Of a DNA stretch of 64,000 nt, positions 30,427-38,203 are shown in pieces. The stretch lies in the NCBI RefSeq assembly GCF_009914755.1, contig NC_060925.1. One strand, written 5' to 3'. The stretch comes from the human T2T-CHM13v2.0 reference genome, Homo sapiens. Position 1 is the stretch's first letter, and the number at the start of each line of letters is the position of its first letter. Position numbers and translations under genes: made by a program. The notes beneath the pieces are model-generated. The model was not told where the DNA came from. It did not search any database and saw only the letters and a list, made by a program, of their open reading frames with translations.

Positions 30427-30543
30427 GTTACACATTTGGATATGACTATTCGTGAGCACAGAGGAGAAATGGAACAAAAAATAATTAAATTAGAAGGTAC
30501 TCTGGAGAAATCAGAATTGGAACTTAAAGAATGTAACAAACAG
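30427..30543 (+). CDS. CCDC18: CCDC18 exon (VTHLDMTI...ECNKQ)
   Basis: ttag acceptor, gtaaat donor; 117 nt. Confidence 0.92.
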
Positions 30544-30812: not shown

Positions 30813-30989
30813 GTGGATCTTTCACTTCTTTGATTAAATTTCTTCCTAGATACTTTATTTTTTTGTAGCTGCTTTAAATAGGATTGCCTTCTTGATTTCT
30901 TTTTCACATTGATTGCTTTTAGTGTATAGAAATGCTACTGATTTTTGTATGTTAATTTTGTATCTTGCAACTTGACTGAATTTATCAGT

Positions 30990-31303
30990 TCTTTTTTAGT
31001 TTTTGTTTTTGTTTGTGTTTTGAGACAAGATCTCACCCTGTCATCTGGGCTGGAGTGCAGTGTCATGATCATAGCTCACTGCCGCCTCAACATCCCAAGC
31101 TCAGGTGATCCCTCCACCTCAAGTCTCTGAAGTAGCTGGGACTACAGGCGTGCACCACCATGATTGGCTAATTTTTTAATTTTTTGTAGAGATGGGGTTT
31201 TGCCATGTTGCCTAGGTAGGTCTCAAACTCCTGGGCTCAAGCGATCTTCCCCCCTCAGCTTCCCAAAGTGCTGGGATTACAGGCATGAGACACCACGCCA
31301 GCC
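30990..31303 (-). mobile_element. AluJ-like inside L1
   Basis: TSD TTTATCAGTTCT. Confidence 0.88.
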
Positions 31304-31595
31304 CTGTTTATCAGTTCTAATAGTTTTTTGGTGGAGTTTTCAGGTTTTTCCAAATACAAGATTATATCCTCTGCAAACAAGGATAATTTAACTTCTCTCT
31401 TTCCAATTTGGATGCCCTTTCTTTCTCTTGTCTAGTTGCTCTAGTCAGGACTCCCAGTATTATACTGAATAATAGTGGTGAAAGTGGGCATACTTGTCTT
31501 GTTCTATATCTTAGTGGAAAGACTTTGAGTTTTTCCCTATTCCTATGATATTAACTATGGGTTTGTTGTAAATGATCTTTACTGTGTTATTTTCC

Positions 31596-31902
31596 TTCTT
31601 TTTTTTTTTTTTTTTTTTTTTTGAGATGGAGTCTTGCTCTGTCACCCGGGCTAGAGTGCAGTGGCTTGATCTCAGCTCACTGCAACCTCCGCCTCCCGGG
31701 TTCAAGCAATTCTCTGCCTCAGCCTCCCCAGTAGCTGGGATTACAGGTGCCCACCACCACGCTCAGCTAATTTTTGTATTTTTAGTAGAGACGGCGTTTC
31801 ACCATCTTGGCCAGGCTGGTCTTGAACTCCTGACCTCATGACTTCACACACCTCAGCCTCCCAAAGTGCTGGGATTACAGGCGTGAGCCACTGCGCCCAG
31901 CC
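31596..31902 (-). mobile_element. AluS inside L1
   Basis: TSD TGTTATTTTCCTTCT. Confidence 0.9.
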
Positions 31903-32282
31903 TGTTATTTTCCTTCTATACCCAATTTGTTGAGAGCTTTTATAATGTGAAGATGTTGAATTTTATCTGATGCTTTTCAATAATGCTTTTAATTTTAATA
32001 TGAAATTATTATATGGTTTTTGTCCTTGATTCTGTTGATGTAATGTATCATGTTTAATGATTTGTGTATGTTGAACCATCTTGGCATCCCTGGGATGAAT
32101 TCCACTTGGTTATGGTGAATGATCTTTTAAAAATGTCTTTGAATTCAGTTGATAGTATTTTGTTGTGGATTCTGCCTCTGTGTTCATCAGGGATATTGGC
32201 CTGTTGTTTTCTGTTTCTGTTATGTCCTTGTCCGGTTTTGGTATCAGGGTAATGCTGGCCTTGTAGAATGAGTTTAGAAGTG

Positions 32283-32583
32283 GGCCAGGCACGGTGGTGC
32301 GTGCCTGTAATCCCAGCACTTTGGGAGGTCGAGGTGGGCAGATTGCCTGAGCTCAGTTCAAGACCAGCCTAGACAACCTGGAGAAACCCCATCTCTATAG
32401 AAAGTAGAAAAATTAGCCAGGTGTAGTGGCATGTGCCTGTAGTCCCAGCTATTAAGGAGGCTGAGGTGGAAGGATTGCTTGAGCCTGGGAAGTAGAGGCT
32501 GCATTGAGCCATGAGTGCACAACTGCACCCCAGCCTGGGCGACAGAGTGAAACCCTGTCTCAAAAAAAAAAAAAAAAAAAAAA
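32283..32583 (+). mobile_element. AluJ-like inside L1
   Basis: dimer with poly(A). Confidence 0.88.
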
Positions 32584-33771
32584 TGTTCCCTCCTCTTCAA
32601 TTTTTTGAAATAGTTTGAGTAGAATTGGTATTAGTTTTTCTTTAAATGTTTGGTAGAATTCAGCAGTGAATGTATCAGGTCCTGGGCTTTTCTTTGATGG
32701 GCGACTTTTTATTACTGCTTTTATCTCATTACTTGTTATTGTTCTATTCAAGTTTTCTGTTTCTTCATGGTTCAATCTCAGTAGGTTGTGTGGGTCCAGG
32801 AATTTATCCATTTCTTCTAGTTTTTCCAATTTGTTGGTATGTAGTTGTTCATAACAGTCTGTAGTGATCCTTTGTATTTCTGTGGTATGAGTTGTAATGT
32901 TTCCTTTTTCATCTCATTTTATTTATTTGGATTCTCTCTCTTCTTAGTCATCTAAAGGTATTTGTTAATTTTGTTCATCTTTTCAAGAAATTAACTCTTT
33001 GTTTCATTTATCCTCTGTATTGTTTTATAGTCTCAATTTCATTTATTTTTGCTCTGATCTTTATTACTGCTTTCCTTCTAATAATATTGGGTTTGGCTGT
33101 TGCTATTCCAGTGTGGGAAAGGCAGTTCAAGACCAACTTGAACTTACCTTTTGTAGAGACAGGGTCCCACTATGTTGCTCAGGCTCACATTCTTATCAGC
33201 ACATGGAATTATCCAGAATACATAAATGTATTATGTATTATCCAGAATATGTAATATGTTAGGCCACAAAATAAGTCTCATCAAATTTTTAAAGGTAGAA
33301 ATCCTATCAAATATATTCTCAATGCAATTCTAAAAGCATCATTTTCAGTAATATGTCCAATAATATTTTCAATAATGCTTTTAACATGCACCTTTAGGTG
33401 CATTGTTTGTTTGAAATTTTTGTATTTTTTTGATGTAAGCAATTATTGCTATAAACTTTCCTCTTGGTACTGCATTCACAGTAGCCCGTAGGTTTTGTTA
33501 TGTTGTATATCCATTTTTATTTGTTTCAAGACATTAAAATTTTTTTTAAAATTTCTTCACTCACCCTTTGTTCATTCAGGTGCATTTGTTTACATTTTAT
33601 GTATTTATATAATTTCTAAAGTTCCTCTTATTATTGATTTCTATTTTTATTCCATAGTGGTTAGATAATATATTTGATAGGATTTCTACCTTTAAAATTT
33701 GATGAGACTTATTTTGTGGCCTAACATATTTATGTATTCTGGATAATATTCCATGTGCAGATAAGAATGTG

Positions 33772-34003
<232 letters not shown>

Positions 34004-35649
34004 AGAATATGTATTCAGTAACAGTGGGTGAAATGTTCTGTAAATGTCAGTCACAAAATGCCTCCTTGGCCTAGTTTGTAGTTGAACTCTGATGTTTCTT
34101 TGTTGATTTTTTTAATCTGGACAATCTGTTCATTACTGAGAGTGGGGTATTGAAGTCCCTGTCGTTTTATTGCAACCACCTATTTGTCCCTTGAGATCTA
34201 TTAATGTTTGCTTTATATACTCGGGAGCTTTATATGCCTGGGTGCATAGATATTTATAATTTTTATATCCTCTTGCTAGCGTGACACATTTATCATTAAA
34301 TACTGGCCTTCTTTGTCTCTTTCTACTGTCTTTGATCTGTAGTCTGTTTTGTCTAAGTATAGCTATTTCTGCTATACTTTTGATTTCCATTTGAATGGAA
34401 CATCTTTTTACATTATTTTACTTTCAGTCTATGTGTGTCTTTATGAAGTGAATTTCTTTTAGGAAGCATATAGTTGGATTTGTTTTTTAATCCATTCACC
34501 CACTCTATGTGTTTTAAATGGAAAATTTAGTCCAGTTACATTCAATGTTATTATTAATAGGTAAGGATCTGTGCCTTTCTGTTACTTGTTTCTTAGTTGT
34601 TTTGTAACTCCTCCCTTTCTTTCCCACTTACTGTCTTTCATTGTGGTTAAATGATTTTTTCTGGTAGTATGATTAATTGGTTGCTGTTTATTTTTAGTGT
34701 ATCTCTCACAGGTTTTTGCTTTGTGGTGAGACTTATAGAAAACATCCTATTGTTATAACAAGCTATCAAAAACTGATATCAACTGTGATAGCAAAAACAA
34801 AAAAAAGTAAAAACTTGTATACTTTAATCTCCTTCTCCTTCCACATTTTGAATTTTTGGTGTTCCAATTAAATTGTTATATTGCCTATCTCTGAATAAAT
34901 TGTTGTAATTATTATTTTTAATAATTTTGCCTTTTAGTCTTACTAAAGATATAAGTGGTTTACACACCATGATTTCAGTGTTGGTGTAACAGTCACATTA
35001 GTGGCGGTTTTTCTTTTAAGTTTGAAGTATTCCCTTTAGCATTTCTTGTAGGACAGGTCTAGTAGCGACAAATTTCCTCAGCTTTTCTTTGGGAAAGTGT
35101 CTCTTCTTCATTTCTGAAGGATAACTCTGCTTGGCACGGTATTCATGATTGACAGGTTTTTTTTGTTCAACACTGAGTATGTCATCTTACTCCCTCCTGG
35201 TCTGTAAATTTCTGCTGAGGTGTCTGCTACCAGGCATACTGGATCTTCCTTATATATTATTTGCTTCTTTTCTCTCACTGCTTTCAGGATCCTGTGTTTG
35301 TCTTTGATCTTTGAGAGTTTCATTATAATATGTCTTAGGGTGTTATTATTTGGGTTTAATCTGGTTAGCGATCTTTGACCTCTTTATACCTGCATACTTA
35401 TATCTTTCCTCAGGTTTGGAAATTTTTCTTTTGTTTCTTTAAAAAAGCTTTCTACCCCTTTGTCTTTCTCAGTTCCCTTTTTAACTCCAATAATTCAAAG
35501 ATTTGCTCTTTTGATGTTGTCCCAAAGATCCCATAAGCTTTGTTTATTCCTTTTTATTCCTTTTTTCCTCCTCTCACTGTGTAGTCTATTTATCTATCTA
35601 TCTGTCTGTCTATCTATCTATCTATCTATCAAACTAATTAACTAACTAA

Positions 35650-35924
35650 CATGGGGTCTTTGTTACCCAGAGGTGGAGTGCAGTGGCACAATCATAGCTC
35701 AATGTAGCCTTGACCACCTGGGCTCAAAGAATCCTCCCACTTCCGCATTGTGAGTAGCTGGGATTACAGGTGCATGCTGCCACACCTGGCTAATTAAAAA
35801 AAAATTTATTTTAAGTGATGGAGTTTCACTATGTGACTCAGTCTGGTCTCAAACTCCTGGGCTCAAGTGATCCTCTCAGCCTACTGAGTATCTGGGATTA
35901 CAGGTGTGAGCCACCATCCTCAGT
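35650..35924 (-). mobile_element. AluJ-like with (TATC)n-derived tail
   Basis: diverged dimer; tetranucleotide repeat at about 35585-35630. Confidence 0.82.
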
Positions 35925-37730
35925 TCTGATTATATATTTTCAAATAGTCCATCTTCAAGCTCACTGATTCTATTTGACCCATTCTGCTGTTGATGCTCTT
36001 TATTTCATTTTTCACTTCATTTATTGTATTTTTCAGCTCCAAAATTTTTGTTTGATTTTTTAAAAATTATTTTATTCTCTGTTAAGTTTTTTTGATAAAT
36101 TTCTCAATTGATTCCCTGCGTCGTCTTAGAGTTTGTTGAACTTCCTTAAAATACCTATTTTCAGTTCTTTGAGAGATCACACATCTCCATCACTTCAGGG
36201 TTACTCTCTGGTGCCTAATATTGTTCATTTGGTAAGGTTGTATTTCTTTCAATGTTCTTGATACTTGTAGATATGCAACGACATCTGCATATTCAGGGAC
36301 TGGGTATTTATTTTAGTCTTTGCAGTCTGGCTTAGTTTGTGCTTGTCCTTTTTGGGAGGCCCTTCCAGGAATTTAAGCAAACTGGCTTTTGTGTTCCCTG
36401 AGGCTGTGATCACTGCAGCTGTTGAACACTAGAGAATAATCTACATCCAGGCTTGCTGCAGGTCTTACAAGGGCTTCAAGGTTGACATGGCTTTCTGGCC
36501 CACATGGACCTGGGAAGGGGTCAAGTTGCGTACTAAGGCTGTGGGAATGCTTGCCAGGGACCCAGGTCCAGAAGGCTGTCCTGGTGGCCCAGATGGGCAT
36601 GTTTCCCAGCAAATCTTTTGACAGGTGAGATGAGTCTCTAGTTGCAATGAGAGGGGCTGGAGTTGAGACTGGCCCTCTTGGGATATATTGTGGAATGGAG
36701 GCTGAAGAGCCCAGTCTCAGCTTAGAGGGGCACACATAGCCCAGCAAGCTCCTTCACAGGATATTTCCCCAACGACAGTGTGAGGAGCTAGAGTTGAGAC
36801 TGGGCCCCCTTGGCATCTGCTGTGGGATGGAGGCTGGAGAACCTATCTTGTTGGCCCAGACAGGGCCAGCAGGTCTCAGCTCAGATGGAATAGTTCCCTG
36901 TCTGCAGTGGGAGGTGCTGGAGCTGAGATTTAACCCCTTTAGCATCTGCTGTGGGACAGAGGCTGGAGAGCCTATCTCATTATTTCAGAGGTGCATGTGT
37001 CTCCCAGCAAGTCCCTGCACAGACAGGATAGTTCCCTGATTGCAGCAGGAGAGTCGGGGCTGAGACTGGGTCCCCTTGGGATCTGCTCTGGGACAGAGGT
37101 TGGCAAGCCTTTCAAGGAGGCTTAGACTCCTAGGCAGCAGGATAAGGACAGGTCTCCCTTTGGGTCTGTGTGTGAGTAGCTCTGAGCTGGGACCTTTGCT
37201 GAGGGGAGTTGGAGCAGAGTCACCAGGCAATTTTCCGGTCCACTGCTGAGACTGATGTCAGCAGGGAGAGAGCCTTTCCACTAAGGCACTAGTATGCATG
37301 ATTCCTTATGGACCCCTTTTCAGATGGTTGTGCTTGTAGGCTCAAGGCCAAATGGGGCTGTAGCCAAGTCCCTTGGGGACGTGGGCTGTTTCCAGGCTTG
37401 AACCCAGAAGCAAGCTTGGCATATCAGCCACCTGGGTTTCTGTCTGTGCTCTCAAAATAACACTCCCACATCTTCGTCTCTACCAGGATTTCACAAACTC
37501 CTACCTGAATCCTGAGGCTCCTGCAAAGAGGCTTTTGACTATAGAAAGGTGCAGGATTCTTTTTTTATTTTATTTTATTTTAAATTAACAGTGTTTATTT
37601 ACCTCTAAGTATTGTTGAGAGACTGGGGTGAAGACACAATTTTCATTTTGTAATTTACAGACTTCTATAAGCTAAAACAAAAACAAAAAAGTCTTCTCTA
37701 TTTAATATAATGGTAGAATACAACTTCTAC

Positions 37731-37824
37731 TTTTATTTATTTTAATTTTTTAAATTTCAATCGCTTTTGGGGTACAAGTAGTTTTGGTTACATAGATACA
37801 TTTTATAGTGGTGAAGTCTGAGAG
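37731..37824 (-). mobile_element. L1PB 3' terminus (part of a transduction insertion)
   Basis: tttcaatcgcttttggggtacaag...tagtggtgaagtctgag matches the recalled L1PB 3' end. Confidence 0.75.
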
Positions 37825-38059
37825 GGTGCAGGATTCCTGTTGTTGTGGGGGAATATGAGTGGGTTACCCTCTATTCTGCCTTTCTGGTAATGTCCAAGAA
37901 CAAGAATTTTTGTGCTTATTTCCAGGATACGATTGCCTTAACCTATTTATATTTTGCTTTTAGATATGAGTGTTTAAAGCTTGACTTACTTGGAACACAG
38001 CATTGATTAAATTACATTTCATTAATTTTACTGATACTGCTTATCTGTTTAAAATTCAG

Positions 38060-38203
38060 ATAGAAAGTCTGAATGACAAATTACAAAATGCTAAAGAACA
38101 GCTTCGAGAAAAAGAGTTTATAATGCTACAAAATGAACAGGAGATAAGTCAACTGAAAAAAGAAATTGAAAGAACACAACAAAGGATGAAAGAAATGGAG
38201 AGT
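38060..38203 (+). CDS. CCDC18: CCDC18 exon (IESLNDKL...KEMES)
   Basis: tcag acceptor, gtaagc donor; 144 nt; ORF 38003..38254. Confidence 0.92.

What the first reader, a model, noticed from the sequence alone, without database searches (positions are those of the whole stretch)
37548..37836. L1PB-mediated 3' transduction carrying about 150 bp of unique DNA
Seen: a 12-bp direct repeat GGTGCAGGATTC (37548-37559 and 37825-37836) brackets an insertion into the 5' region of an older L1. On the - strand it reads: a short L1PB-like 3' end with its A-rich tail (37824-37731), about 150 bp of non-repeat sequence, AATAAA (37599-37594), then a second (TAAAA)n/poly(A) tail (37581-37560). Known: a double tail inside one TSD is the signature of L1 read-through transduction. 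Inference: the unique segment tags an ancient source L1 elsewhere in the genome.
Basis: partly seen in the sequence, partly recalled or inferred. Interest (0 to 1): 0.7.

Follow-up and report, generated by a model that had tools for sequence, protein, structure and literature searches.

The report
Old L1 insertion carrying flanking DNA
A 265-base jumping-gene insertion in an intron of human CCDC18 holds the tail end of an old LINE-1 plus 149 bases of single-copy DNA that it likely copied from beside its parent element, a common and well-known kind of event whose parent site was not found.

Summary
37560-37824 is a real insertion: a 12-bp direct repeat brackets it, and paralogues of the host L1's 5' end carry that site once with no insert (16 of 16 testable). 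Both repeat copies share a C where 22 of 24 paralogues have T, so the duplication was made at this locus. On the minus strand it reads: 73-bp L1 3' end, A-rich tail, 149 bp single-copy DNA, AATAAA 12 nt before a second tail. Neither half has its own TSD. The middle is not host L1 and not a repeat family at about 70% identity or more (1 candidate against 55 for a control). This is the textbook anatomy of a partnered L1 3' transduction (about 0.78). The defining test, a source locus, failed: six DNA searches, a 22-mer scan and a peptide search found only the self copy, with incomplete power (control recovered 13 of 24). 'L1PB' is recalled, not tested. About a quarter of L1 insertions carry such flanks; this one is intronic, antisense, non-coding. 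Low interest.

The parts
37825..37836 (-). Target-site duplication, copy at the element's 5' side (probably 37825-37838 originally)
37752..37824 (-). 73-bp 3' end of an old L1 (5'-truncated); L1PB-like by recall
   Evidence: 1068 candidates, best 82-91%; aligns to 34 paralogous 3' ends; 7 substitutions in 72 columns from their majority; paralogue L063 has ORF2p upstream on the same strand, E 1e-41
37731..37751 (-). First A-rich tail (inferred: the source element's tail)
   Evidence: 81% A; paralogues have A-rich tails at the same place
37582..37730 (-). 149-bp single-copy segment, inferred transduced 3' flank of the source L1
   Evidence: only self found; no match to host L1 or to flanks of the L1 loci fetched; no Rfam family near its gathering score
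37594..37599 (-). AATAAA, 12 nt before the second tail
   Evidence: chance about 0.04 in a 21-nt window
37560..37581 (-). Second poly(A) tail, now (TAAAA)n-patterned
   Evidence: 86% A
37548..37559 (-). Target-site duplication, copy at the element's 3' side
30820..37894 (-). Host: older, broken L1 (5' UTR, ORF1, part of ORF2; Alu-interrupted); the low end is read by eye
   Evidence: ORF1p Pfam domains at 35019-35383; ORF2p at 32563-32913, E 2e-39; 24 paralogues of its 5' region at 67-76%; 39 of 260 from their majority

Best explanation
This TSD-flanked 265-bp insertion is likely an old partnered L1 3' transduction: an L1 transcript likely ran past its own weak poly(A) signal and tail, was cut at an AATAAA about 130 bp downstream, and was likely copied by L1 target-primed reverse transcription into the 5' end of an older L1, stopping 73 bases into the L1. 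Shown: one insertion, one TSD made at this locus, the order L1 end / tail / single-copy DNA / AATAAA / tail, host more diverged than insert. Inferred: read-through from the L1's own transcript, the nick at a TCTT/G-type site (if the TSD was 14 bp), an early-primate age. No function is expected: it is antisense in a CCDC18 intron, and no listed exon overlaps it.
For: Empty site in 16 of 16 paralogues where both flanks aligned (overlap 12 in 12 of them, 6-19 in four), and in the alignment of all 24. Locus-specific C in both TSD copies, T in 22 of 24 paralogues. No inner TSD: longest shared word 3 and 5 nt. AATAAA 12 nt upstream of the last tail, inside the 10-30 bp window given in PMC13009371 (passages). 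Two A tracts in one insertion is the anatomy given in PMC4859970 (passages). TCTT/GA and TTTT/GT nick sites and TSDs opening with AAGAA occur in that paper's Table 1. Insert 7 of 72 from family majority against host 39 of 260. A recent copy (about 10% from its source) would very likely have been found (simulated word survival 0.82-1.0), which favours an old event.
Against: No source or sibling was found: DNA searches gave only self for the middle; adding it to the L1 piece left the same 1068 candidates and the same 40 scored; the 22-mer scan gave 33 hits against 41 for the reversed control, and all 32 non-self hits scored 32-48 where a true paralogue would score 108-226; a 28-aa frame found only self. 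A perfect 12-bp TSD is somewhat well kept for 10% decay per copy (0.08; 0.22 for 14 bp with one mismatch). The exact 12-bp TSD alone gives a poor endonuclease site. Anatomy alone cannot tell which promoter made the RNA.
Confidence: 0.78

Rival explanations
1. Trans-mobilised 3' end of another Pol II RNA (mRNA or lncRNA) that ran through an already dead L1 end lying 150 bp before its poly(A) site; a truncated retrocopy, possibly younger than the L1 family.
For: Same anatomy and TSD; the TSD and second tail look fairly well kept. The T2T preprint reports truncated elements as transduction sources (passage).
Against: A younger copy should have a close source, which the searches would very likely see, and none was found. 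Such RNAs are far rarer than L1 read-through transcripts (inference).
Confidence: 0.12
2. Template-switch chimera: ORF2p began on the poly(A) end of a cellular RNA, copied 149 bases, then jumped to the tail of an L1 RNA; the two parts were never neighbours in DNA.
For: L1 chimeras with mRNA and lncRNA exist (10.1101/2025.02.02.635956, passages); no L1 locus with this flank was seen among the loci fetched.
Against: The chimeras in the passages read put the foreign RNA 5' of the L1, the reverse order. Only 40 of 1068 L1 candidates were scored, so the lack of an L1 with this flank is weak.
Confidence: 0.06
3. Two independent insertions at one spot, or a middle that is a decayed part of a repeat or tail.
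For: A family older than about 30% divergence would escape these searches; no repeat library was available.
Against: No inner TSD; 1 candidate against 55 for a same-length control from a 70-80% family; the middle is not a simple repeat. An old repeat in the middle would still fit a transduced flank.
Confidence: 0.04

Closest known systems
Partnered L1 3' transduction (as defined in PMC13009371 and PMC4859970; passages)
   Same: 5'-truncated L1 end, two A tracts, unique DNA between, AATAAA 10-30 nt before the last tail, one TSD; size within the range of reported events.
   Different: Source not identified; an old, decayed subfamily, not L1HS/Ta.
T2T-CHM13 transduction catalogue (10.1101/2021.07.12.451456; passages)
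   Same: Same genome and event class; 971,811 L1s screened with a modified TSDfinder, 183 L1 3' events at highest confidence, others in lower bins.
   Different: Whether this locus is in its Table S13 is unknown (supplement not seen); without a source it would not reach the top bin (inference).
Truncated processed pseudogene / trans-mobilised RNA 3' end
   Same: TSD, poly(A) signal and tail.
   Different: No parent gene found; the only recognisable content is an L1 end with its own tail.

Membership tests
L1 3' transduction (partnered) | One TSD around the whole insert, absent from the empty site | tested here: met
   (empty site from paralogues of the host, not from orthologues)
L1 3' transduction (partnered) | L1 3' end with its tail at the 5' side | tested here: met
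L1 3' transduction (partnered) | Non-L1 segment, poly(A) signal 10-30 nt before a second tail | tested here: met
L1 3' transduction (partnered) | No separate TSD for either half | tested here: met
L1 3' transduction (partnered) | Segment maps just 3' of a source L1, or its empty site, elsewhere | tested here: inconclusive
   only self found; control recovered 13 of 24 known paralogues; 22-mer power 0.24-0.41 at 20-15% divergence
L1 3' transduction (partnered) | Endonuclease-type nick site (YYYY/RR) | tested here: inconclusive
   TCTT/GT if the TSD was 14 bp; poor for the exact 12 bp
L1PB subfamilies | Diagnostic 3'-end sequence of L1PB1-4 | not testable with these tools
   no Dfam/Repbase library; label recalled (L1PB3/4-like)
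Processed pseudogene | Matches the 3' end of a parent transcript | tested here: inconclusive
   no second copy found, same power limits

The most novel reading that the evidence does not exclude
The source locus has been deleted from the human lineage, so these 149 bases are the only surviving human copy of a piece of early-primate DNA, a fossil tag of a vanished L1 source that other primates may still hold.
Probability: 0.25. Interest if true: 0.25.

Novelty: new member of a known kind. Interest (0 to 1): 0.13.

Why it matters
Little on its own. About 25% of L1 insertions carry 3' flank (PMC13009371, passage). This is a clean old example, nested in an older L1 so that paralogues supply the empty site. 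If its source were mapped it would mark one element that was active in early primates; a systematic set of such old tags would show where extinct source L1s sat.

Tried and rejected
Source search by DNA reference, 22-mer with 3 mismatches (32 of 32 non-self hits fetched and aligned) and a 28-aa frame: only self. Four of those hits (L071, L072, L076, L077) are one repeat family that looks like an LTR (recalled); their scores against the middle (36-48) lie within background (up to 52 among unrelated loci), so rejected. Middle against the window: best non-self 40 bp at 80%, E 6e-4, not extended. Rfam: one hit at E 0.72, 19.6 bits against a gathering score of 65. Pfam found nothing in 5 of 5 ORF2 C-terminal fragments of paralogues and in 6 of 9 host fragments; PDB sequence search settled ORF2p. 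A profile search of the genome, more than 3 mismatches, a local BLAT-type search and primate orthologues were not available, so the source question stays open. Literature: searches listed no paper on this locus (listings only); Pickeral 2000, Szak 2003, Khan 2006 and the journal version of the T2T repeat paper were not held.

Full report
Observation. The sequence is as described. The 12-mer occurs at 37548-37559 and 37825-37836 and nowhere else in the window with up to one mismatch; shuffles give 0.26 matches on average and 2 of 100 reach two. Between the copies lie 265 bp. On the minus strand: a 73-bp piece (37824-37752), a 21-nt tail of 81% A, 149 bp of 72% AT sequence, AATAAA at 37599-37594, 12 nt, and a 22-nt tail of 86% A.

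The host. The flanks belong to an older, broken L1 on the minus strand: ORF1p domains at 35019-35383 (2 of 9 fragments scanned matched L1 families) and ORF2p at 32563-32913 (E 2e-39). A search with 36400-37930 gave 1210 candidates, 40 scored, 24 non-self loci fetched. They serve as empty sites. In 16 of the 24 both flanks aligned separately; all 16 join without an insert, with an overlap of exactly 12 in 12 of them and 6-19 in four. The alignment of all 24 shows one copy of the site. At 37832/37555 both window copies have C while 22 of 24 paralogues have T: the duplication copied this locus's own allele, so it is a true TSD and not a family feature. At 37837 the window has G, 21 of 23 paralogues with a base have A, and the 3' copy has A, so the TSD was probably 14 bp, which gives a TCTT/GT nick, close to sites in Table 1 of PMC4859970 (passages). 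Paralogue similarity starts near 37894, so the insert lies about 58 bp inside the host's 5' end.

The L1 piece. It drew 1068 candidates, the 39 non-self scored at 82-91%. It aligns to 34 distinct 3' ends, each followed by an A-rich tail and unrelated flank; one of them has ORF2p upstream on the same strand (E 1e-41). It differs from their majority at 7 of 72 columns plus one gap (paralogue median 8%, biased low because they were picked as best matches); the host differs at 39 of 260, so the order host-then-insert fits. L1P families were active 7-80 Mya (10.1101/2025.02.02.635956, passage). The name L1PB, and an age near 50-70 My, are recalled, not tested.

One event or two. The longest word shared across the L1 piece alone is 3 nt and across the middle-plus-tail alone 5 nt: no inner TSD. 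The AATAAA sits where transduction ends are usually found (10-30 bp; PMC13009371, passages); chance in this composition is about 0.04.

Is the middle unique? It does not match the host, the flanks of the L1 loci fetched (best score 52), the rest of the window or Rfam. A 149-bp control from the host family gave 55 candidates at 73-84%, the middle gave 1, so it is not a family of that size and age. A much older repeat is not excluded.

The source. Not found. Queries 37582-37730, 37582-37665, 37575-37772 and 37660-37730 each gave 1 candidate, self. 37575-37790 gave 135 candidates, 40 scored, none aligning beyond query base 74. The whole insert gave the same 1068 and 40 as the L1 part. A 22-mer with 3 mismatches gave 33 hits against 41 for the control; all 32 non-self hits were fetched and scored 32-48, against 108-226 expected at 15-25% divergence. 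A 28-aa frame found only self. Power is incomplete: the control recovered 13 of 24 known paralogues among its 40 scored (biased upward, since those 24 were seed-rich), the search skips common words, 38 bp of the L1 end drew no candidate at all, and the 22-mer has power 0.24-0.41 at the 20-15% divergence expected. So an old source may be present and missed, or lost. A young source near 10% would very likely have been seen, which argues against a late retrocopy.

Mechanism. Best: an old partnered 3' transduction, 0.78. Rivals: truncated retrocopy of another RNA that held a dead L1 end, 0.12; template-switch chimera, 0.06; two events or decayed repeat, 0.04. The failed source search bears on the first three alike, except that it disfavours a recent copy.

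Function. The insert is antisense in the CCDC18 intron between exons 30427-30543 and 38060-38203 of the hub's table; its poly(A) signals are on the other strand, and no listed exon overlaps it. No function is expected (inference).

Known and new. The anatomy is the textbook one (PMC4859970, passages); about 25% of L1 insertions carry 3' flank (PMC13009371, passage); 268 polymorphic high-confidence L1 cases are listed in PMC9311842 (passages); the T2T preprint screened 971,811 L1s and kept 183 L1 3' events at top confidence (passages). Its supplement (Table S13) was not seen and may list this locus in a lower bin. PMC9252281 was seen as passages and a supplement list only. Searches listed no paper on this locus (listings and abstract starts only). 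Verdict: real, ordinary, source unidentified; new member of a known kind; interest 0.13.

Noticed in passing
window 33146-33320 and 33664-33811: An inverted copy of about 150-175 bp at 89-98% identity inside the host L1, spanning what reads as an Alu/L1 junction, with a 19-bp exact copy of 31974-31992 at 33366-33384. It looks like a templated inverted insertion younger than the Alu.
   Followed up: partly
window 36645-37114: The host L1's 5' UTR holds 3-4 tandem units of about 130 bp at 60-80% identity.
   Followed up: no
window 37560-37591 (+): On the CCDC18 sense strand the second tail reads as a T-rich tract followed by AG at 37590-37591, like a cryptic splice acceptor, about 470 bp before exon 38060; no exon in the hub's table uses it.
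   Followed up: no
window 37825-37830: The end of the 5' TSD copy shares a 5-base word with the L1 sequence that lies just upstream of the truncation point in paralogues, offset by 3 bases; possible junction microhomology or chance.
   Followed up: no
window 37644-37656 and 38078-38090: Perfect 13-bp inverted repeat between the middle segment and CCDC18 exon 38060-38203; E 0.30 over the window, taken as chance.
   Followed up: yes
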